A stretch of 64,000 nt of DNA, taken from the NCBI GenBank assembly GCA_000004985.1, contig GG738907.1, one strand, 5' to 3'. The notes below the pieces were generated by a model. The model was not told where the DNA came from, did not search any database, and was given only the letters and a program-made list of their open reading frames with translations. Positions 1 through 21,797 of this stretch are shown here, piece by piece. The position numbers were made by a program, and so were the translations under genes. This stretch comes from Naegleria gruberi. Taxonomy: Eukaryota. Each line of letters opens with the position of its first letter. Position 1 is the first letter of the stretch.

Positions 1-2603
1 TTTTGTACTTGTTCTTCATATTCAATTAGAGATTCAGATTCTTTCTGATAAATTTGTTCTAATTTTTCTGATTGTTTTGAATATTCATCTTTATAATTTT
101 TATAATATTGTAATTTAACTTCTAATTCTAATTCACATGTAATTAAACGATCAGATATTTCTTTTAATTTTTCAGAATTAACATGTTTTTGTAATAAATT
201 TTTAGATAATATCATATCATTAGATTTAATTAATTTAACATGTTCAATTCTCTTATTTTCAATTTTTAATTTTGATTTACCAAATAATTTTTCATTTTTT
301 AATTCTAATTGTTCAATATTTAATGTTGTTTCTGCTTCCATTTCATCTCTTTGTAATTGTGAATTAAAACTAAATGTTAATTTAACTTGTTGTGTTTTAA
401 TAAATGTATTCATTATAAATGTATATTTACCAATACTATTAGATGTAATTGAACTTAATTTTAATAATTGATTAGAAGGTGAACTTGATTCAACATTTGA
501 ATCATTTTTATCTTTAATTTGACTAAATGCTAAATATATAGCAAATGATTCTCTAGCAATTCTATTACGTTCTTCTTCTTCTATAGAAGAATTAGATGAA
601 TCTAATTGAGAGGATGATGAATCATTTAATGATGATGATGATGAATTATTATTATTACCAAATATATTACTACTACTACTATTATTGGATGAATTATTTG
701 AATTATTTGAATTAGATAGATGAATTATTAATAGATGGTACAATTAATAACATGTCATTAAATAAATAAATATTATAAAAACCAAATAATCTCTTCTTTT
801 CAATTTCTCTTGAAGATTCAACATGAATAGAATTGAAACAAGTTGTAAATTTTCTATGTGCTTGAAGTAAATTATTAAATCTTCCTTTCATTTTCTCTTG
901 TAAATCAAAAACAATTTTATCATTTTCAGCAATTCTTTTAGATTCATTTAAATTTTCAGCAACTTGATTAACAATTAATAAAGCTTGTTCTAATAATTGA
1001 TAATCTATATGTGTTTCATCTGTTCTTCTTATTACTTCTTGTAATAACATTCTAATACGTGGTACTCTTTGAACTGGACATACTAAATAAGATAAAAAAG
1101 TTAAACCACAACATTCTGACATTTCATGTGTTTTTGTTAGAAATTGTGAAAATGATTTTGATGTTTTTTCTAATTTTTCAACCTTTTCAGCAACACTATC
1201 AAAATTATTAATATATTTAGAATACATTCTAAAAAAAGGAGCAAATGATTTAAATATATTACCAATTAAAATTGGATTTGTTGGCCATTTATCAATTTCT
1301 TTTTTTAAATCATTCATTAATAATTGACTTGCTTGCATTATATTAGGTAATTCACCAAATATATCATTTATATCTGAAAGTGATAAAGTTGGTTTCTTTT
1401 TAGTTTGTGCTTCATTTAGTAATGGATCCATAAATAATTGTTTACATGTTAATAATGAATTAAAATAAGTTTGTTCTGTTGTTAATATTTCTAATAAGGC
1501 TGCTTTTCTTAATCTTGCTTGTCTTACTTGTGGTGATTTACTTATATATTCTTTAAATTGCTTTTTATAGTAATATTTTAATAATTTTAATGATATTAAT
1601 TCTTTAATTTCATTATTTATATTTATATTATTATTATTATTAGAAATATTATTATTTATAATATTATTATTTGTAATATTATTATTTATAGATGAATTAA
1701 TTGATAATTTAGGTGATATTATAGTAGTACTTGTATTATTAAAAGAAGGAGGAGGTAAATCAAGTGAAGGTAAATCCATAGAAGGAAGTGCAGTTAATGA
1801 ATTTAAACGATTAGATGATGATGAGGATGATGTTGTTGTTGCTTTTATAAATGAATTAGTACGATCATGTAAAATAATATCATCCTCATCTGAATCTATA
1901 TCTTCATCATCTTCATATTGACTTGTATCTCCACCATTATAATTATAACTATTACTATCATCAAATGTTGTNNNNNNNNNNNNNNNNNNNNNNNNNNNNN
2001 NNNNNNNNNNNNNNNNNNNNNNNNNNNNNNNNNNNNNNNNNNNNNNNNNNNNNNNNNNNNNNNNNNNNNNNNNNNNNNNNNNNNNNNNNNNNNNNNNGTT
2101 CGGAATTTAGAAAATAAAGTAGTAACAGATCGAGTCTTCTTTTTATGAAGTGAAGAAGAAGATGAAGGTGAAATTAATTGTTGTACATCATTGGGTAAAT
2201 CTGAATATTCTACTTTTTTAAAATAGGTAGATGGTATTTCAAATAATTGATTATTTGATATCTCATTCACTTGATATCCATTATTATTATTATTATTGAT
2301 ATTGATATTGATATTTCTATATATAATGATGATGATGATTATTATGGAGATGACAATAATAATAATATTATTATTTAATAATGATGATGATGGTAATAAC
2401 ATTCATTACATTCATGAAAGATAATAATAATTATTATAATTTAAAGATAACACAAATTCATCTATTAAATAATAAATATAAATTTTAATAACATACTTGA
2501 TTAAATGTATAAAAGTACCCTTTGTTTTATAAATATTATTCTTATTATCAATAAAATCACTTGTTAATTGACCAAATTGATCATTTTCATCAAGTGATGA
2601 CAT
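1..2603 (-). CDS. RhoGEF (Dbl-homology) protein with C-terminal PH-like/coiled-coil region; 3' end runs off the window start and the 5' part is interrupted by an N-gap
   Basis: ORF 712..1779 (-) has a DH-domain signature (QARLRKAALLEILTTEQTYFNSLL...). The minus-strand frame across 1..711 is open to the window edge in a +1 frame relative to the upstream ORF and encodes a PH-like region (KYTFIMNTFIKTQQVKLTFSF...) followed by a coiled coil. This implies a small intron near 712..790, for which the only candidate donor I found is GTTATT. The ATG at 2603 is followed by a low-complexity Asn/Ile-rich region and a 126-nt N-run. 5' exon structure is unresolved. Confidence 0.65.
1972..2097. other. assembly gap (126 N)
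   Basis: Run of N in the sequence. Confidence 1.
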
Positions 2604-3250
2604 TTGTCAGTTGTTTTTTTATTAAATGTCAAAATGATATCAATGGTCATGTCTTCCTTCTCTCGATTTCATGGTCGCTTCGAATGACTTGAAAATTGAT
2701 CGAACGTCACTCTTTCATTTTAGAAAGTTTATTACTATTTTATATGGTCATTGATTTGGTCAACTATATTCTTAATTATCCCAATTAGAATCATGATTGT
2801 ACACTTTATAATTGAATATTTATCATTTAATATTATAATTAATTGAATATAATATTGAGAAAACATTTAATATTTATATATTTCAAAATTAAATTCAAAG
2901 TCATTTCAATTAAAGAAATTTGAGAATCTAATAAATACGATATCTCTCTCCATACATACAATTCGAGATACATTCCATTTATATATTTCAAAAGATCAAC
3001 AATAACAACACATAAAACAATAACAATACAACTAATTATAACTGAAAATAAGAAATTTAAACTACTACTATTATCACTTGAATACCAATTTAAAAAATCA
3101 AAGAAAAATACACTCAGTAATGAATTAATTACTACAACAACAATATCATCATCATCATTAAATAATTCATCATCATCAACTACTACTTTATCATCTAATA
3201 AATCACAATCAATTAATATAAATAATAGTGATAATAATAATGATAATAAT

Positions 3251-5065
3251 ATGATGATAATGGATTGGATAAATAAGAATGAAAATATTAATGATATTTA
3301 TTCACCCATTTCATCTCCTCTTTCTCCTCCTAAAATATTATTTTTATTAAATAATCAAAATAATCAAAATAATCAATTTAATAATAAATCATCTACATCA
3401 ACTTGTATTAATTTATTTAATAATATAAATAATAGTGATAATAATAATAATAATAATAATTCAAATAATAATAATATAATTGAATATTATAAAAAAATAA
3501 TTGATAAAATTGATCAATTTGATTTTGGAATATTAAATACTATATTATCATATTATTTATTAATAATTGATGATTGGTTTATTTGTAATTATTTATTTAA
3601 TAATAATAATAATTATATTAATTTATTTTATGGAAAGAAATTTAATTTTATTTTTCAATTATTTCCTTCTATTTATATTAATATTGAAAATAAATATTTT
3701 ATTAATTATTTAATTGATTTAAAACCAATTATAAATAATTGTGAATTTATTATTTTTAATAATTTAGATCAATTAAATAATTTTAATTTTAAAAAATTAA
3801 AAAGTTTTTCATATTTAAATAATTATAATATTAATAATTTAAATATTCAACATGTATTTGGTAATTCATTAAATACTTTACAAAATTTAACATTTACTTG
3901 TAATTTTAATAATATTAAAAAATTAAAATTAAATTGTAAAATGTTAGAAGATTTAGATTTTAATTCAATTAAAAATATAGAAATATTAACAATACATTTA
4001 AAATATCCAGTTATAGAAGAAAATAATTTAAATTTAATAAATTATTTAAAAAATCAAAAATGTAAAGAATTAAATTTAAATTTTAACATGACAAAATATT
4101 TAAAATATTTTAATGAATTTAATTTAATTCAAACATTATCAATACCATATTGTTTATTTAATGAAAAATTTAATTGGAAAATATTTAAATATTTAAATAA
4201 TTTAACTGTAAATTTTAATGAAAAAATTCAATTTGAAAATTTAATTTCTCAAATTGGAAATCAATTAAAAAAATTATATTTAATTTTAGATATAGATGAA
4301 TTTACAAATGATTCATTTATTAATTTTAATAAATTTTGTATTAATTTAGAAGAATTACAATTAAGTGAAATTAATTTGCATATTTCAAATGAAATTAAAA
4401 ATTCAAATTCAATTACTATATTTGGATGTGATACAATTATAGCAGATTTAATAATTTTAACAAATATTTTATCAATTAAAAATATTTATAGATTAGATTT
4501 AAAAATTAATTCAATTTATTCATTTTTAGAATTAAATTTAAATAATTTATATTTAGAAATTCAATATTTTTATAATTTAAATTCTAATTATCAATTAAAA
4601 AAATATAATAATATAAATAAAATACAAAAATTAGAATTAATTTATAAATATAATGAAAATATTAATGATTTAACATTTTTAACATTTACAAATATAGAAG
4701 AATTAATAATTAAATATGGAATATTAAATACATCTTTATTTAGTCAATTATTATCATGTAATAATATTAAAAAAATAACATTTTATAAAACTGATTTAAA
4801 TAATATTATTTTTAATAAGTTAATTAAATTTAAATTTATTAATTTTATTCAATGTAATTTAAATTTAAATTTTTTAAAAACATTTAAAGAATATTATGAT
4901 AATATTAAATTAAATAATGATATAATATTAGATGGATATTCATTATATTTAACAAATACATTAAATATAAATATTAAACAAAATAATTTAATTGATTTAT
5001 TTAATGAAATTAATTATAAACATGAATATTTAAATAATAATAATAATAATTGTATATTACAATAA
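3251..5065 (+). CDS. Asn-rich leucine-rich-repeat-like hypothetical protein (604 aa)
   Basis: Single long ORF. The first in-frame ATG is 3251, although the frame is open upstream to 2924. Repeated LxxLxLxxN-type segments (LNLNFNMTKYLKYFNEFNLIQTLSIPY...). Extreme AAT/AAA codon bias and poly-N tracts. Confidence 0.5.
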   Translation: MMIMDWINKNENINDIYSPISSPLSPPKILFLLNNQNNQNNQFNNKSSTSTCINLFNNINNSDNNNNNNNSNNNNIIEYYKKIIDKIDQFDFGILNTILSYYLLIIDDWFICNYLFNNNNNYINLFYGKKFNFIFQLFPSIYINIENKYFINYLIDLKPIINNCEFIIFNNLDQLNNFNFKKLKSFSYLNNYNINNLNIQHVFGNSLNTLQNLTFTCNFNNIKKLKLNCKMLEDLDFNSIKNIEILTIHLKYPVIEENNLNLINYLKNQKCKELNLNFNMTKYLKYFNEFNLIQTLSIPYCLFNEKFNWKIFKYLNNLTVNFNEKIQFENLISQIGNQLKKLYLILDIDEFTNDSFINFNKFCINLEELQLSEINLHISNEIKNSNSITIFGCDTIIADLIILTNILSIKNIYRLDLKINSIYSFLELNLNNLYLEIQYFYNLNSNYQLKKYNNINKIQKLELIYKYNENINDLTFLTFTNIEELIIKYGILNTSLFSQLLSCNNIKKITFYKTDLNNIIFNKLIKFKFINFIQCNLNLNFLKTFKEYYDNIKLNNDIILDGYSLYLTNTLNINIKQNNLIDLFNEINYKHEYLNNNNNNCILQ

Positions 5066-5523
5066 AATTATGTTTTATTGCATTTTTTTTGGAATTATTC
5101 AATTAGAAGTGTTTTACAATAAAAATATTAGATGTGATAATGTTTCGATCGTGTGACCAGACTCTCTCTTCATAATCTTGGATAAGTTGACAATCACTGA
5201 TTTCCCAATTCTTCTTTGATTCTACTGGTAGGCACATTTCTAATCATATATTCACAAAGAAAATGGGATGTAATATTGAACTTGTTGCAATTGAACAAAA
5301 TCCACCTTCTCTTTTCACTTGAGACTCAAATTAAATTTGGAGAAATTGTCGTAAAAGATTTGAATTTCTTACCAAAGAGCCTTTTTTTTGGAAAGGGTGA
5401 TGGTGTTGTGGGTGTCTTGTGTTGCCTTAGCAGTTAAAAAAGTGCAAACTAGCTTTTTTGTTAACTATTTTTATTACAAATATGTGAAAATTGTTTGTTA
5501 GTGAGAGGTGATCAGGATTAAAT

Positions 5524-6057
5524 TTAGAGAGCGAAAACACCCAAAACAACAGCCAAAGCAAACATAGCCAAAGCACTGACTTGATTGATAACACCAGAAT
5601 TGTAACAGTTAGTTGTTGGATAAGTGGAACAATCAGGTTGTTTGGTACCAAGTTTAGCATAATCGGAAGCACATTCAGTATTCAACTTTTCACAGAAGGA
5701 CTTGCAGACATTGATTCCATAGTTTGAAGTACTGATGAATTGTTGATTGCTTGGTGAACATTCAGCACATATTTGTTGCTTGTAATATTGACGACATGAA
5801 GATGAAACACCAAGATTAGAATAAACAGTGTCAGAATTTTTCTTACTTGTAACTTGACCAGCAGAACAACATGAGGAAGTCTTGAGAGAAGTTCCACAGA
5901 AATCATCACAATCAGTACAAGCAGTTGCATTGTATGAAATGTTTCTATTCAAACATGTTTGAGCAGAAACAACAGTGTTGAAGAATGTGACCAAGAGGAG
6001 AGTGCAAGCAATGACACATAAGAATTTGACGGACATTTTGATTTGTTTTTTTTTCAA
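5524..6057 (-). CDS. small secreted Cys-rich protein with a predicted GPI-anchor signal (177 aa)
   Basis: N-terminal signal peptide (MKKKQIKMSVKFLCVIACTLLLVTFFNTVVSA). About 16 Cys in CxxC and CC patterns. C-terminal hydrophobic tail after small residues (NSGVINQVSALAMFALAVVLGVFAL), typical of a GPI attachment signal. Confidence 0.6.
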   Translation of the reverse strand: MKKKQIKMSVKFLCVIACTLLLVTFFNTVVSAQTCLNRNISYNATACTDCDDFCGTSLKTSSCCSAGQVTSKKNSDTVYSNLGVSSSCRQYYKQQICAECSPSNQQFISTSNYGINVCKSFCEKLNTECASDYAKLGTKQPDCSTYPTTNCYNSGVINQVSALAMFALAVVLGVFAL

Positions 6058-17161: not shown

Positions 17162-18913
17162 ATGGTACTAAGAATAATCAGTAGTTTCCCGCCTTTTCTT
17201 TGTACAAAAAACAAACTTGAAAAAATGAATCACAGTTATCACGACGATGATGAGGATGAAATGATGATTAAATCATCAATGGAAAGAGAGGATACATACG
17301 ATCCAAACGAATACAACTATGGAGGCAATGATAACGAACATAATGAAGATTATGATGAGGCTGCATTAGAGGAAGATGATGATGATCAATACAGTGATGA
17401 GGAAATTCCTTCGGGAGGCCACAATTTTAATTTCTTCATACAAGGAGGTAAAATTCCAATAAGACAAACACCAATTGCACCAACCCTATCTGAAGATAAG
17501 AGTAGTGATAGGAAAATTAAGGAAGATGATGACTTTGAATACAATATGGATGAAAGTGAAGATGATGAAATCTATCCAATCAGCTCAGATGAGGATGATG
17601 ACCCTCCAGCAGCACTTCAACAGCTCAAACCTAGTATTCAAACGGTGATTAGGAGGAAATCTCCAATGAAGAATACTGAAGAAAAAGTTACACATTCTCC
17701 TCAATCGAATAGTAGACCTTCATCTAATTCATCGAATAAGATAAGAGCAACACCAACAAAAACAACAGCACCAGTTTTGCATGATAGTCCTGAACAAAAT
17801 AATGTTGTTCCTAGACCAAAACTTTCTCTTGGAGCTGTCAGTAGATATACAGATGATGACGATGTGAGGTCATTAACATCTAGTAGAACAAACAGTGATA
17901 ATCTTTCGATAGGAGAAGATAAAATGAAAAATCAACTCGATTATTTGAAACAAAAACAAGAACAACTGTACAAACTCAACCAACAGCTCAATGTGGAAAC
18001 AAAACAAGTTCTCAAAGAAACAGATGATATTGTAAAACAACAATCTAAAAAGGTGGAAAGTATCTCATCAAGAATTCCTTCTAGGCCGACAAGTAGTGCA
18101 TCAACAGTGAGGTCCAATACACCATCGAGTACTCATAGATCCAATGTCTCAACTGCAACAACTACAAGACCTTCTAGTGCACAACCTTCAGCAAAAAAGA
18201 AAGTAATGGAAAAAATTGAAGAAGCCAATCAATATGAAGATGATGACCTGGATAAGGCAGCAAACGAAATGAGTGTCGAAGCAGCCATGAAATTCTATAA
18301 GGCAAGAGTAAAATCACTCCAAAAAGATATTCAAGATTATTCCAATCAAATGAAACTCAAAGATGATAAAATCAAGGAACTGGATATTAAATATAATGCT
18401 GCCATGATAGAAAACAAAAAGGTTACAAAAGCTCAAACCCAATTCCATTCTAGATTGGATAGACAGAGAAAGGAGTTTGATGCTCTTCAACTAAAGTTCA
18501 AAAAACAAACAACACTCATGAATGAGATGCAAAAAGAAAATGAAAAGCTGAAACAAAATCTGAGGATGGATGGACCTGTATCAAACAAGGAAGTTGAACC
18601 AACCTCTGGAAACAATAACGACAGAATCAAAGATCTTAAATATACAAGAGCTTTGGAAGAAGTTGAAAAGCTAAAGAGTCAATTGTCAGAAGCTCAAAAA
18701 CAACAGAGAGAAGATAATGATAAACAAAGGAAGGATACCGAAAATTTGAGAAAGGACAATAAGCGATTAGAAAGACAGAAACAAGATATTGTTTTGGCCT
18801 TCAAAAAACAAATGAAATTAATAGATGTTCTAAAGAGGCAGATAATTCATTTAGAAGCATCAAAGCAACTATCGTTTACAGAAGAAGAATTTACATCACT
18901 TATGAATCAATAA
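17162..18913 (+). CDS. acidic / Ser-Thr-rich coiled-coil protein (583 aa)
   Basis: Long ORF. N-terminal DE-rich and Ser/Thr-rich low complexity. C-terminal 250 aa strongly heptad-like (KLKDDKIKELDIKYNAAMIENKK...LKQNL...). The real start may be the internal Met of MNHSYHDDD. Confidence 0.6.
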   Translation: MVLRIISSFPPFLCTKNKLEKMNHSYHDDDEDEMMIKSSMEREDTYDPNEYNYGGNDNEHNEDYDEAALEEDDDDQYSDEEIPSGGHNFNFFIQGGKIPIRQTPIAPTLSEDKSSDRKIKEDDDFEYNMDESEDDEIYPISSDEDDDPPAALQQLKPSIQTVIRRKSPMKNTEEKVTHSPQSNSRPSSNSSNKIRATPTKTTAPVLHDSPEQNNVVPRPKLSLGAVSRYTDDDDVRSLTSSRTNSDNLSIGEDKMKNQLDYLKQKQEQLYKLNQQLNVETKQVLKETDDIVKQQSKKVESISSRIPSRPTSSASTVRSNTPSSTHRSNVSTATTTRPSSAQPSAKKKVMEKIEEANQYEDDDLDKAANEMSVEAAMKFYKARVKSLQKDIQDYSNQMKLKDDKIKELDIKYNAAMIENKKVTKAQTQFHSRLDRQRKEFDALQLKFKKQTTLMNEMQKENEKLKQNLRMDGPVSNKEVEPTSGNNNDRIKDLKYTRALEEVEKLKSQLSEAQKQQREDNDKQRKDTENLRKDNKRLERQKQDIVLAFKKQMKLIDVLKRQIIHLEASKQLSFTEEEFTSLMNQ

Positions 18914-18914
18914 A

Positions 18915-19811
18915 TTATATGTATTCATCATCTAATAAGACTCGAGCATTATTTTGAGTATGTAAATAGTCAACTGTACTATTGACCAATTCGTAAACTT
19001 TCTTATTTTCACAAACATTGACATGTTTTATGAAAATTTTGTAAAAATCGTCCTTAAATAAAATGTTTGTTGTTGAATCCTCATTAAATGCAATAGTATT
19101 AAATTCTGTGAGTGCTGTATATTTATACCTTTCAATGATTTTTGTCATTTCCTTTTCATCAGAAACCTGTACACTGTCATTACATGTTACTACACTGTTA
19201 ATACACAAAAATATTGGAATATCTTTGAAAAGTTCCTTATATTCATTTAGAATATCCTTGAGTAATAAAATAGATTTTTTAAAGTCGTGATATATGGATA
19301 TTTGTAATTTTGTTATTCCATTGGAAAGGGTTATTTCATCGTTAAAACTCAACACTGATTCATATTCTTTTTTTTCCTCTTTTTCCTCCACTATCTCTTT
19401 AAGAATGTCTATTTCAATTAAATACTTGGCAACAAAGAATATACCATGTGTTGATTTGTAATAATCACTCCACATTGACTTTAAATTTCCACCAATATCC
19501 CATATCTTTAAAAAACAGTAATTTGCATAATTAAAATTAAATGTATTCTGTCCAATAGTTGGATTATAGAATTTCCGACTTGATTTAGAGTATAAATTAT
19601 TAAAATTAAATTGAAATATAGTTGATAGAGGCGATTTAGAGTCAAGTGTCATTATTTTAGAAGGTGAGTGAGAAAATATTTCCTGTTTGTTCATGTTTTT
19701 AATTGTTTGTAATAATTCTGTTTTCCCACTATTCTCCATCCCGATCAATAACAAATTGTAGGTTGGTGTAAAGCTGAGTTTTTCATAAACCAACTCGAAT
19801 AGTGATAACAT
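18915..19811 (-). CDS. divergent ARF-like (ARL-family) small GTPase-like protein with degenerate G3/G4 motifs (298 aa)
   Basis: G1 LLLIGMENSGKTELLQ. The switch region PTIGQNTFNF..CFLKIWDIGGNLKSMWSDYY aligns to ARL [28 protein letters not shown], but Gln is replaced by Asn. NKxD is replaced by CINSVV. A roughly 45-aa insertion follows G1. No Gly2. Confidence 0.6.
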   Translation of the reverse strand: MLSLFELVYEKLSFTPTYNLLLIGMENSGKTELLQTIKNMNKQEIFSHSPSKIMTLDSKSPLSTIFQFNFNNLYSKSSRKFYNPTIGQNTFNFNYANYCFLKIWDIGGNLKSMWSDYYKSTHGIFFVAKYLIEIDILKEIVEEKEEKKEYESVLSFNDEITLSNGITKLQISIYHDFKKSILLLKDILNEYKELFKDIPIFLCINSVVTCNDSVQVSDEKEMTKIIERYKYTALTEFNTIAFNEDSTTNILFKDDFYKIFIKHVNVCENKKVYELVNSTVDYLHTQNNARVLLDDEYI

Positions 19812-19955: not shown

Positions 19956-20567
19956 TTATTCTTTTGGTTCTGGAATTTTGAAAGGACTTGTTCCATTATT
20001 AATTTGTAAAAGTACAACTCTAGGATCTTCTCCATTCACTTTACATCCTATACTAACACAAGTTCCTAATACTTCCTTTACTTTTGCTGTTAATGTTCTT
20101 GCTGTTTTACTAGATTTCTTAGTTTGTGCTATATGAATTAATTGATCAAAAGTCAAATTTCCATCATGAACAACATGATATTGTTTGTCACTTGGAGCCT
20201 CTCCTAAATTTGATATAACAAATAGAGGCGAATGTTCTGCCAATTCCAAATCAATCATATCCCTAGATTTTACAATAAATCTAACAGTAATATGTTTAGC
20301 AGACCAATTCAAAGCCTGAACCAATTCAGTAATTCTCTGAGAGATTACTTTAGGCGAAATTCCGAGTGGACCAAACACTGGTGCAAGTTTACCAGGATTT
20401 GGTTGTTGAGATCTCACTTTCACTACTAAAATAAGTGGATTATCTATTGAGTAATTTTTAGAAGTGGGCACGAGTTTTGTAGTAGTGCCAAAGCCTAAGG
20501 ATGGCGAGTAGGTTAGTGTTGACATTTTTTTTGGATTTATTGTTAAGAATGAACTTTGAATCTCCAC
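19956..20567 (-). CDS. divergent ribosomal protein uL11-family (L12e/L11) paralogue with N-terminal extension (203 aa)
   Basis: PNPGKLAPVFGPLGISPK.. resembles LAPKIGPLGLSPK. ..VKEVLGTCVSIGCKVNGEDP resembles IKEILGTAQSVGCNVDG of eukaryotic L12. IAQTK is as in bacterial L11. Overall identity to cytosolic L12 is only about 35 %, although Rad51 and others in this window are highly conserved. Confidence 0.65.
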   Translation of the reverse strand: MEIQSSFLTINPKKMSTLTYSPSLGFGTTTKLVPTSKNYSIDNPLILVVKVRSQQPNPGKLAPVFGPLGISPKVISQRITELVQALNWSAKHITVRFIVKSRDMIDLELAEHSPLFVISNLGEAPSDKQYHVVHDGNLTFDQLIHIAQTKKSSKTARTLTAKVKEVLGTCVSIGCKVNGEDPRVVLLQINNGTSPFKIPEPKE

Positions 20568-21042: not shown

Positions 21043-21797
21043 ATGGGCAATCAACCTGGCAAAAATAAGCAATATAGAAAGAATGAGTTGAAGAAACTCG
21101 TAGAGATCACCCACTTTGATATGGATGAAATCATGAAGCTTTATGAACAATTTATTTCTATTTCATCCTCTCGTGAAGATGATGGTGTGATAGATAAAAA
21201 TGAATTTAAGGAAGCTCTTGGCTTGAAGGATTCTCTTTTCGTTGATAGAATGTTCTCCTTGTTTGATGGTGATAATGATGGTACTATTGGTATGTAAATT
21301 ATTGTATAGTAACGAATTAATCATAGGCTAATTAATACAATAATAATAATATTATTTTATTCGTGATGATGAACTTGCAATAACCGAAAATTGTAGATGT
21401 AAGAGAATTCATTTGTGGATTGTCTGTATTTTGCGAAAAGGGAACCATTGATGAAAAACTCAAGTTCTCTTTCAGAATTTATGATTTTGATAAAGATGGT
21501 TGTATTAGCAAGGAAGAATTGTACAAACTTTTAGAAGCTTCACTCGTTGAAAACTCACTAGGTATTCCACAAGAACAATTATCATCATTGGTTGATGCTA
21601 CTTTTGCTGAAGCTGATACAGACGGAGATGGCAAAATATCTGTAAGTTGTTTTAATTAGAGATTTCATGTATCTAATCTACTTGTTTAAACAATTCAACA
21701 ACAACAACAATAATAGTTTGAGGAATATCGTGTACTTGTTACTAAACATCCAACTATGATCGGAAATATGACTATCAATACCTCAATTAAGAAGTAA
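21043..21797 (+). CDS. N-myristoylatable EF-hand Ca-binding protein (calcineurin-B / CHP-like), 3 exons (21043..21289, 21397..21641, 21717..21797)
   Basis: MGNQPGK start with Gly2. EF-hand loops DKDGCISKEEL and DTDGDGKISFEEY are reconstituted across GTATGT..TAG and GTAAGT..TAG introns. The third loop DGDNDGTIGDVREF spans intron 1. Confidence 0.75.

What the first reader, a model, noticed from the sequence alone, without database searches (positions are those of the whole stretch)
18915..19811. ARL-like GTPase with Gln-to-Asn in the DxxGQ motif and a degenerate NKxD – a candidate pseudo-GTPase
The G1 loop (LLLIGMENSGKTELLQ) and the switch I–II block (PTIGQNTFNF...KIWDIGGNLKSMWSDYY...IFFV) align convincingly to ARF-like proteins, which read PTxGFN...VWDxGGQxKxRxxWxxYY. 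The catalytic Gln is Asn (WDIGGN). The G4 box reads IFLCINSVV instead of xxxNKxD, so only the Asn survives. About 45 residues are inserted after G1. There is no Gly2 for myristoylation. Together these suggest a protein that keeps the ARF fold but has lost canonical nucleotide specificity and hydrolysis.
Basis: partly seen in the sequence, partly recalled or inferred. Interest (0 to 1): 0.5.

Follow-up and report, generated by a model that had tools for sequence, protein, structure and literature searches.

The report
Divergent Naegleria ARFRP1 with degenerate GTPase motifs
This gene is the Naegleria gruberi version of ARFRP1, the small GTPase at the top of the trans-Golgi recruitment cascade. 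It is under strong selection yet has lost the residues that normally recognise guanine and hydrolyse GTP, so it probably no longer cycles as a normal switch.

Summary
Window 18915-19811 (-) is an intact single-exon ORF of 298 aa. It hits Pfam Arf above threshold and carries WDIGGN and a G4 remnant CINSVV.

It is not an unnamed ARL. Its sequence is identical to 'NgrArfrp1' in the supplement of Vargová et al. 2021, so the window is N. gruberi. My own tests agree with ARFRP1: profile retrieval, paralogue-group HMMs and an NJ bootstrap.

The missing Gly2 and the longer G1-G2 linker are ARFRP1 family traits. Loss of the catalytic Gln is common in protist ARFRP1s (6 of 12 curated ones).

Specific to Naegleria/Willaertia:
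- complete loss of NKxD and of SAx
- a 2-residue switch II deletion
- a confidently modelled three-stranded beta extension (aa 123-175)
- a long alpha4

The P-loop, the switch I Thr and DxxG are kept in Naegleria. dN/dS against a close relative is 0.05.

Best reading: a functional ARFRP1 orthologue that has become a non-cycling pseudo-GTPase, either hydrolysis-dead and base-unspecific or nucleotide-independent. No biochemistry exists.

It is a new variant of a known kind, of modest interest.

The parts
18915..19811 (-). Complete single-exon CDS (298 aa plus stop) of the Naegleria gruberi ARFRP1 orthologue
   Evidence: ORF list. Translation is identical to NgrArfrp1 of Vargová et al. 2021. It aligns end to end with the N. 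lovaniensis and Willaertia proteins.
19764..19811 (-). N-terminal amphipathic helix, aa 1-16 (MLSLFELVYEKLSFTP). No Gly2. Met-Leu start of the type acetylated by NatC in Arl3p/ARFRP1.
   Evidence: AF2 helix at aa 2-12 with pLDDT 87-90. ARFRP1-like hits share M[FYL][ST]L..G[LF]Y. The role of N-terminal acetylation and Sys1 is taken from PMC6829661.
19719..19742 (-). G1 / P-loop GMENSGKT (aa 24-31), intact GxxxxGK[ST]
   Evidence: Sequence. Conserved in Naegleria spp. and in Willaertia, which reads GEAESGKS.
19563..19691 (-). Expanded alpha1-beta2 linker, aa 41-83, predicted disordered
   Evidence: pLDDT below 50 for aa 44-58 and 62-79. G1-G2 spacing is 52, against 15 in Arf/Arl and a median of 23 in ARFRP1.
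19545..19562 (-). G2 / switch I PTIGQN (aa 84-89). Thr85 is retained. Gln at the position where Arf/Arl proteins have Phe, as in yeast Arl3p (PTVGQN).
   Evidence: Invariant columns T85, G87 and N89. Comparison with reference sequences.
19485..19502 (-). G3 WDIGGN (aa 104-109). DxxG is intact. Asn replaces the catalytic Gln and is followed by a 2-residue deletion in switch II.
19431..19484 (-). Switch II / alpha2 / beta4 block LKSMWSDYYKSTHGIFFV (aa 110-127) with the ARFRP1-type S.W..YY...H signature
   Evidence: It is among the most conserved blocks in the clade. It matches SceArfrp1 LRSMWSEYYSLCHGIIFIV.
19284..19430 (-). Clade-specific insertion between beta4 and alpha3 (aa 128-176). Modelled as an elongated beta4 plus a beta-hairpin, giving a three-stranded extension.
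   Evidence: AF2 strands at 123-136, 152-162 and 165-175, with pLDDT about 95 for aa 151-200. The strands are conserved and the loop is variable in Naegleria spp..
19188..19214 (-). beta5 plus G4 remnant IFLCINSVV (aa 200-208). Asn205 is kept. The Lys and Asp of NKxD are replaced by Ser and Val.
   Evidence: N205 invariant and P199 nearly invariant. beta5 at 200-210. FLCINS invariant in Naegleria.
18999..19040 (-). beta6 plus G5 remnant KIFIKHVNVCENKK (aa 258-271). VCE stands in place of [CS]SA/SAx, and the loop is shortened.
   Evidence: beta6 at 259-264 and alpha5 at 269-285. Alignment to ARFRP1 references. V266 and C267 invariant.
18918..18950 (-). ARFRP1-type C-terminal tail NARVLLDDEYI (aa 288-298)
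   Evidence: The same KNAR...[DE][FY][IL] tail occurs in curated Neo, Ddi and Ago Arfrp1 and in P0006 and P0075.

Best explanation
The gene encodes the Naegleria gruberi orthologue of ARFRP1 (yeast Arl3p). ARFRP1 is the Arf-family protein that SYS1 recruits to the trans-Golgi through its acetylated N-terminal helix. It then enables recruitment of ARL1 and ARL5 and their tethers.

In the Naegleria/Willaertia lineage the protein kept several parts:
- the G-domain fold
- the phosphate/Mg-binding elements (P-loop GxxxxGKT, switch I Thr, DxxG)
- the switch/interswitch surface
- the ARFRP1-specific N- and C-termini

It lost the catalytic Gln, two residues of switch II, the guanine-specificity Lys/Asp of NKxD and the SAx box. 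It gained a disordered alpha1-beta2 expansion, a structured three-stranded beta extension after beta4 and a long alpha4.

The most likely working mode is inferred, not shown. The protein would no longer run a GEF/GAP-controlled GTP/GDP cycle. It would be a hydrolysis-deficient binder of any triphosphate, with low base specificity. That would hold it permanently in an 'on'-like conformation as a membrane-anchored platform at the Golgi/TGN. Any regulation would then come from N-terminal acetylation, SYS1 binding or the new insertions.

Shown: identity, fold, motif state, selection. Inferred: nucleotide behaviour, localisation, partners.
For: Identity:
- The sequence is identical to NgrArfrp1, which Vargová et al. 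annotated 'conclusively' by phylogeny.
- A profile of the Naegleria clade, searched against 1.84 billion representatives, retrieves mostly ARFRP1. Of the top 154 hits, 119 best-match human ARFRP1.
- Two-sequence paralogue HMMs give 49.8 and 48.6 bits for Arfrp1 against at most 37.1 bits for 11 other groups. The margin is larger for N. lovaniensis (67.6 against 31.1) and Willaertia (54.4 against 27.8).
- In NJ bootstraps the nearest neighbours are exclusively ARFRP1 in 289 of 300 replicates, and the whole ARFRP1 clade is recovered in 184 of 300.
- It shares the N-terminus, the PT[IV]GQN motif, the S.W..YY...H block and the KNAR..[DE][FY]I tail.

Fold:
- AF2 gives pLDDT 81 and pTM 0.79.

Functional gene:
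- dN/dS is 0.052 at dS 0.51 against a 94%-identical relative.
- The motifs are invariant in Naegleria spp..

Motif state.

Plausibility of a non-cycling ARFRP1:
- GTP-locked human ARFRP1 Q79L rescues the ARFRP1 knockout, whereas the P-loop mutant T31N does not (PMC6829661). This matches loss of Gln with retention of GKT.
- The downstream N. gruberi Arl1 and Arl5 are canonical.
Against: - No biochemical data exist on nucleotide binding or hydrolysis.
- Reverse best-hit fails. Canonical ARFRP1 queries and an ARFRP1 HMM score every conventional N. gruberi Arf/Arl higher than this protein, as expected for a long branch.
- Orthology therefore rests on profile and tree methods that are sensitive to long-branch artefacts.
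- SYS1 in Naegleria could not be checked, because the search reached only metazoans.
- Willaertia has also lost the DxxG glycine (WDIGYS). This hints that even gamma-phosphate sensing may be dispensable, which favours a nucleotide-independent scaffold.
- The model coordinates could not be inspected for pocket geometry.
Confidence: 0.6

Rival explanations
1. It is still a genuine guanine-nucleotide switch. Non-canonical residues, for example from the retained Asn205, Cys267 or the new insertions, would substitute for NKxD/SAx. A GAP would supply the catalytic residues.
For: G1, G2 Thr and DxxG are intact and the switch regions are among the most conserved parts. Many ARF-family members that lack the Gln still bind GTP, such as ARL13 and ARL16 (review PMC12722892).
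Against: The specificity Asp and the Lys of G4, plus the G5 box, are all gone. These changes are invariant across Naegleria. Switch II is shortened by two residues. Willaertia has additionally lost the DxxG Gly.
Confidence: 0.2
2. It is a nucleotide-free (class i) pseudo-GTPase: a pure scaffold that retains only the fold.
For: G4 and G5 are lost. Willaertia reads WDIGYS. Large structured additions could provide new binding surfaces. There is precedent in the microsporidian ArlEM proteins (PMC13393502).
Against: GxxxxGK[ST], Thr85 and Asp105 are conserved from Naegleria to Willaertia, at 36% overall identity. That is not expected if phosphate/Mg binding were irrelevant.
Confidence: 0.15
3. It is a lineage-specific Arf-family paralogue, not the ARFRP1 orthologue, and is drawn to ARFRP1 by long-branch attraction or convergent termini.
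For: Reverse best hits fail. Against the human set alone, Arf4 scores slightly above ARFRP1 (33.5 against 30.2 bits). Arl13 proteins have a similar MLSLF/MFSL N-terminus.
Against: Forward phmmer ranks Sce, Neo and Tbr Arfrp1 first. The group HMMs, the retrieval spectrum and the NJ bootstrap all favour ARFRP1. The ARFRP1-specific tail lies outside the G-domain. No other ARFRP1 candidate exists among the 36 N. gruberi family members, and NgrArlX5 scores best to Arf6/Arf1. The published phylogeny agrees.
Confidence: 0.08
4. It is a pseudogene or an assembly/sequencing artefact.
For: The gene is absent from the NCBI N. gruberi protein set.
Against: The ORF is intact. Orthologues exist in N. lovaniensis, N. 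fowleri, an environmental relative and Willaertia, with the same motifs. dN/dS is 0.052.
Confidence: 0.01

Closest known systems
ARFRP1 / yeast Arl3p (Arf-related protein 1)
   Same: Arf-family G-domain. No Gly2, with an M-hydrophobic-S-L amphipathic N-terminus. Lengthened alpha1-beta2 linker. PT[IV]G[QL]N switch I. The S.W..YY..H block. The KNAR...[DE][FY] tail seen in protist members. Single copy per genome.
   Different: No catalytic Gln. A 2-residue switch II deletion. NKxD reduced to N. SAx lost. About 29 extra linker residues. A 49-aa beta4-alpha3 insertion modelled as a beta-sheet extension. A 27-residue alpha4. 298 aa against about 200.
Other divergent curated ARFRP1s: Trypanosoma brucei, Trichomonas vaginalis, Tetrahymena, Neovahlkampfia, Andalucia (Vargová et al. 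2021)
   Same: The Gln is replaced (S, K, A, K, A respectively). T. brucei shares the 2-residue switch II deletion and large insertions at the same two sites. T. vaginalis has also lost NKxD (LNAD).
   Different: Neovahlkampfia, the closest sampled heterolobosean outside Naegleria/Willaertia, keeps NKCD and SAE. T. brucei keeps NKVD and SAL. Only Naegleria/Willaertia combine loss of G4 and G5 with a structured beta insertion.
Atypical ARF-family members lacking the switch II Gln (ARL10, ARL13A/B, ARL15, ARL16) and the pseudoGTPase classes of Stiegler & Boggon
   Same: An Arf fold without the catalytic Gln, suspected of non-canonical cycling.
   Different: Human ARL13B and ARL16 keep an intact NKxD and ARL15 has NHQD (sequences). 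Here the base-recognition boxes are gone while the P-loop stays.
Microsporidian ArlEM putative pseudoGTPase (PMC13393502)
   Same: A lineage-specific Arf-family protein with mutated G motifs that is conserved within its clade.
   Different: ArlEM is a novel group with G motifs mutated throughout, and some members have deletions of secondary-structure elements. This protein is an orthologue of an ancient paralogue and keeps G1-G3.
Heterotrimeric G-protein alpha subunits
   Different: There is no helical domain: the alpha1-beta2 insert is 43 residues and predicted disordered. Pfam G-alpha does not hit this protein. Sequence profiles place it in ARFRP1.

Membership tests
Arf family (Pfam PF00025) | Profile match above the curated threshold, and a small-GTPase fold with an N-terminal helix | tested here: met
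   [not shown]
ARFRP1 / Arl3p orthogroup | Closer to ARFRP1 than to any other ancient Arf-family paralogue (forward direction) | tested here: met
   phmmer ranks SceArfrp1 (50.2 bits), NeoArfrp1 (44.8) and TbrArfrp1 (40.1) ahead of HsaArf4 (33.5). Group HMMs score 49.8/48.6 against at most 37.1. 119 of the top 154 global hits are ARFRP1-type. NJ: 289/300 replicates have exclusively ARFRP1 neighbours and 184/300 recover the whole clade. Published IQ-TREE annotation.
ARFRP1 / Arl3p orthogroup | Reciprocal best hit from canonical ARFRP1 back to this gene within the N. gruberi Arf family | tested here: not met
   Hsa, Sce, Ddi, Neo and Ago Arfrp1, and a 25-sequence ARFRP1 HMM, score conventional N. 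gruberi Arf/Arl proteins higher (82.5 bits for this protein against 179.5 for NgrArf1a). This is attributed to extreme divergence. The best rival, NgrArlX5, is itself closest to Arf6/Arf1.
ARFRP1 / Arl3p orthogroup | No N-myristoylation Gly2; Met followed by a bulky hydrophobic residue (NatC-type) on an amphipathic helix | tested here: met
   MLSLFELVYEKL with helix 2-12. Actual acetylation cannot be tested here.
ARFRP1 / Arl3p orthogroup | Lengthened alpha1-beta2 linker relative to Arf/Arl | tested here: met
   Spacing is 52, against 15 in Arf/Arl and 21-24 in the Hsa, Sce, Ddi, Neo and Ago Arfrp1.
ARFRP1 / Arl3p orthogroup | Family-specific C-terminal tail (KNAR...[DE][FY] in protists, RPP in opisthokonts) | tested here: met
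   NNARVLLDDEYI compared with Neo KNARYVDTEAYI, Ddi KNARTIEKSDF and Ago KNARVPLKSD.
ARFRP1 / Arl3p orthogroup | SYS1-dependent trans-Golgi localisation, acting upstream of ARL1/ARL5 | not testable with these tools
   N. gruberi Arl1 and Arl5 exist and are canonical. The SYS1 search from the human protein reached only metazoans.
Canonical GTPase switch | G3 catalytic Gln, G4 NKxD and G5 SAx | tested here: not met
   WDIGGN with a shortened switch II, CINSVV and VCE.
Canonical GTPase switch | G1 GxxxxGK[ST], G2 Thr and G3 DxxG | tested here: met
   GMENSGKT, T85 and D105-G108. Willaertia lacks the DxxG Gly.
PseudoGTPase (Stiegler & Boggon classes) | Experimentally impaired nucleotide binding and/or hydrolysis | not testable with these tools
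   Motif evidence only. Retention of G1 argues against class i.
G-alpha | Helical domain inserted between alpha1 and beta2, and a G-alpha profile match | tested here: not met
   [not shown]

The most novel reading that the evidence does not exclude
In Naegleria and Willaertia the apex GTPase of the trans-Golgi Arf cascade may work without a guanine-nucleotide switch. It would be a constitutively 'on', base-promiscuous or nucleotide-independent scaffold, and its new three-stranded beta extension would be a lineage-specific docking platform.

More broadly, loss of Gln and loss of NKxD go together in several unrelated ARFRP1 lineages. Examples are Trichomonas, Ustilaginomycotina fungi such as Malassezia and Ceraceosorus, and several environmental protists. 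This would mean that ARFRP1's core function does not need GTP cycling, so the protein drifts repeatedly into pseudo-GTPase status.
Probability: 0.3. Interest if true: 0.5.

Novelty: new variant of a known kind. Interest (0 to 1): 0.35.

Why it matters
ARFRP1 sits upstream of ARL1 and ARL5 in recruiting golgins and GARP to the trans-Golgi network. Its GEF and GAP remain unidentified. SYS1 has only been proposed as a possible GEF.

A natural orthologue under strong purifying selection keeps the phosphate-binding elements but lacks the catalytic Gln and both base-recognition boxes. That is an evolutionary experiment on which parts of the switch this pathway really needs. It fits the finding that GTP-locked human ARFRP1 rescues the knockout.

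It also corrects an annotation gap, because the gene is missing from the public N. gruberi protein set. It adds a case to the growing list of Arf-family pseudo-GTPases. The practical impact is modest until nucleotide binding is measured.

Tried and rejected
- **Reciprocal best hit.** It fails in the reverse direction. I kept it as a caveat, not as disproof, because every conventional Arf outscores this long-branch protein against any Arf-type query.
- **NgrArlX5 as the true ARFRP1.** NeoArfrp1's best hit in N. gruberi is NgrArlX5, which also has an insert after G1. I rejected it: it has Gly2, lacks the ARFRP1 tail, and scores best to Arf6, Arf1 and Arl3.
- **ARL16.** This was my first guess from memory, because of the insert after G1 and the missing Gln. 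I rejected it: its group HMM scores only 18.1 bits, and N. gruberi has a separate Arl16.
- **SYS1 in Naegleria.** A search with human SYS1 returned only animal sequences, so it was uninformative.
- **Motif census regex.** My first version wrongly matched the P-loop. I redid it.
- **Tool failures.** The Biopython NJ bootstrap timed out and was re-implemented. The afdb50 fold library was unavailable.
- **Census bias.** The census uses sequences retrieved with the degenerate Naegleria profile, so it over-represents divergent ARFRP1s. The 12 curated sequences are the less biased sample.

Full report
**Observation.** Window 18915-19811 holds a 298-aa ATG-to-stop ORF on the minus strand. Pfam Arf (PF00025) matches at E=2e-11 and 44.1 bits against a cut-off of 22.3. 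All significant PDB sequence matches are ARF/ARL proteins, aligned over switch I to beta4. The window has about 30% G+C and is eukaryotic.

**Source and prior knowledge.** The word-index protein search returned only four relatives: a 94%-identical protein from a Logan assembly, N. lovaniensis, N. fowleri and one environmental sequence. The supplement of Vargová et al. 2021 (PMC8358228) lists an identical 298-aa sequence as 'NgrArfrp1 [Naegleria gruberi]'. The authors modelled it from contig ACER01000596.1 because it is not in the NCBI protein set. They assigned it to Arfrp1 by phylogeny and flagged the assignment as conclusive. The main text of that paper does not use the words glutamine, catalytic, NKxD or pseudoGTPase. 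No paper in the library mentions Arfrp1 and Naegleria together in its main text. So the gene is catalogued, but its motif state has not been described.

**Independent test of ARFRP1 membership.**
- A profile of the five Naegleria-type sequences was searched against 1.84 billion cluster representatives. It found one further full-length relative, Willaertia magna KAL9642333, and then mostly ARFRP1-like proteins. Of the 154 proteins then held (the hits), 119 best-match human ARFRP1 among 19 human family members.
- phmmer with the Naegleria protein ranks SceArfrp1, NeoArfrp1 and TbrArfrp1 first.
- Equal-depth two-sequence HMMs give 49.8 and 48.6 bits for ARFRP1, against at most 37.1 bits for the eleven other paralogue groups. 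The margins are larger for N. lovaniensis, the environmental sequence and Willaertia.
- In an NJ analysis of 52 sequences over 180 columns, the clade's nearest neighbours are exclusively ARFRP1 in 289 of 300 bootstraps. The whole ARFRP1 clade is recovered in 184 of 300.
- Features outside the G-domain core agree. These are the MLSLF..VY N-terminus, the lengthened alpha1-beta2 linker, PTIGQN (yeast Arl3p has PTVGQN), LKSMWSDYY..H (yeast has LRSMWSEYY..H) and the NARVLLDDEYI tail (Neovahlkampfia has NARYVDTEAYI).

The caveat is that the reverse best hit fails. Canonical ARFRP1 queries score the conventional N. gruberi Arfs far higher, as expected for a very long branch. The only alternative candidate, NgrArlX5, is closest to Arf6 and Arf1.

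**Family-typical versus clade-specific features.**

*Family-typical.* The missing Gly2 and an insertion after G1 are ARFRP1 traits. The G1-G2 spacing is 21-24 in reference ARFRP1s, against 15 in Arf/Arl. Further expansion is common: 21 of 79 ARFRP1-like proteins have a spacing of 45 or more, and T. brucei has 54. Loss of the catalytic Gln is also common. Among 12 curated Arfrp1s, six lack it:
- T. brucei: S
- Neovahlkampfia: K
- Andalucia: A
- Trichomonas: K
- Tetrahymena: A
- Naegleria: N

In a sample of 69 retrieved ARFRP1-like proteins, which is biased towards divergent ones, 27 lack the Gln.

*Specific to Naegleria/Willaertia.*
- Full loss of G4. CINSVV keeps only Asn205, which is an invariant column with the canonical P-x5-N spacing.
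- Loss of G5, with VCE in place of SAx.
- A 2-residue deletion in switch II, shared with kinetoplastids.

Neovahlkampfia, a heterolobosean outside this clade, still has NKCD and SAE. The G4 and G5 losses therefore appear to be derived within the Naegleria/Willaertia branch. Trichomonas (LNAD) and some fungal and environmental ARFRP1s lost NKxD independently. In the biased sample, NKxD loss goes with Gln loss in 14 cases and occurs with Gln retained in only 2.

**Structure.** AF2 with a 42-sequence alignment gives mean pLDDT 81 and pTM 0.79. The elements, in order:

| Element | Residues | Note |
|---|---|---|
| N-terminal helix | 2-12 | |
| beta1 | 17-24 | |
| alpha1 | 30-40 | |
| linker | 44-79 | disordered |
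| beta2 / beta3 | 89-105 | |
| alpha2 | 111-120 | |
| beta4 | 123-136 | unusually long |
| extra strands | 152-162, 165-175 | pLDDT about 95 |
| alpha3 | 177-195 | |
| beta5 | 200-210 | |
| alpha4 | 216-242 | 27 residues |
| beta6 | 259-264 | |
| alpha5 | 269-285 | |

**Is the gene functional?** Against the orthologue in SRR12418003 (L001) there are 63 synonymous and 19 non-synonymous differences. This gives dS 0.51, dN 0.027 and dN/dS 0.052. The switch I, interswitch and switch II blocks, the G4 remnant and the C-terminal third are the most conserved parts across Naegleria species. GxxxxGK[ST], Thr85, Asp105 and Asn205 persist out to Willaertia at 36% identity. Willaertia has, however, replaced the DxxG glycine (WDIGYS).

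**Mechanistic reading.**

*Shown:* this is a selected ARFRP1 orthologue with an intact phosphate/Mg-binding apparatus. It has no catalytic Gln and no guanine-recognition residues.

*From established knowledge:* the NKxD Asp and Lys and the SAx box provide guanine specificity and much of the nucleotide affinity. Switch II Gln substitutions abolish hydrolysis.

*From the literature:* yeast Arl3p and human ARFRP1 reach the late Golgi/TGN through their acetylated N-terminal helix and Sys1/SYS1. There they act upstream of ARL1 and ARL5. The Q79L form rescues the knockout and T31N does not (PMC6829661).

*Inference:* the Naegleria protein most likely no longer cycles. It is either locked by any abundant triphosphate, or it is largely nucleotide-independent. 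It would serve as a constitutive platform, with the new beta extension and the long alpha4 as candidate interaction surfaces. N. gruberi Arl1 and Arl5 are canonical, so the downstream switches could still provide regulation. SYS1 in Naegleria remains untested.

**Verdict.** The protein is a known orthologue, and half of the listed peculiarities are normal for that family. The combination of G4 and G5 loss with a retained P-loop, strong purifying selection and a structured insertion is a new variant of a known kind. It is of modest interest until tested biochemically.

Noticed in passing
window 17162-18913 (+) and 18915-19811 (-): This is a convergent gene pair whose stop codons are separated by a single nucleotide (18914). 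The partner is a 583-aa acidic, coiled-coil-like ORF with no Pfam hit. The same tail-to-tail arrangement occurs in the related contig L001 (419-1315 + / 1317-3002 -), so the 3' UTRs must overlap.
   Followed up: partly
window 18915-19811: The gene is missing from the public N. gruberi protein annotation. The protein search returned no 100% match, and Vargová et al. had to model the gene from contig ACER01000596.1.
   Followed up: partly
window 19956-20567 (-): This 203-aa ORF has a Ribosomal_L11 RNA-binding domain (E=1.8e-12) behind a roughly 118-residue N-terminal extension that the domain hit does not cover. It lies 145 bp upstream of the ARFRP1 start codon, on the same strand.
   Followed up: no
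window 21043-21659 (+): At least two exons of an EF-hand protein are separated by an intron. The product begins MGNQPGKN, a Gly2 context that suggests N-myristoylation, as in calcineurin-B or NCS-like proteins.
   Followed up: no
[not shown]
   Followed up: partly
window 18918-18950; proteins P0006, P0008, P0012, P0054, P0075, P0115, P0135: Many protist ARFRP1s end in an acidic-aromatic-aliphatic tail ([DE][FY][IVT]), often preceded by KNAR. Opisthokont ones carry an RPP motif near the end instead. I found no described function for this tail.
   Followed up: partly
proteins P0013, P0042, P0078, P0098 (environmental, unnamed): This is a separate group of ARFRP1-like proteins with very long inserts after G1, DVGGR/DLGG[RK] and the 2-residue switch II deletion. 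VPFLV[LF][GW]H stands in place of NKxD. It is another apparently degenerate ARFRP1 lineage, of unknown taxon.
   Followed up: partly
window 1-6000: G+C drops to 17-21% here, against about 30-37% elsewhere in the window.
   Followed up: no
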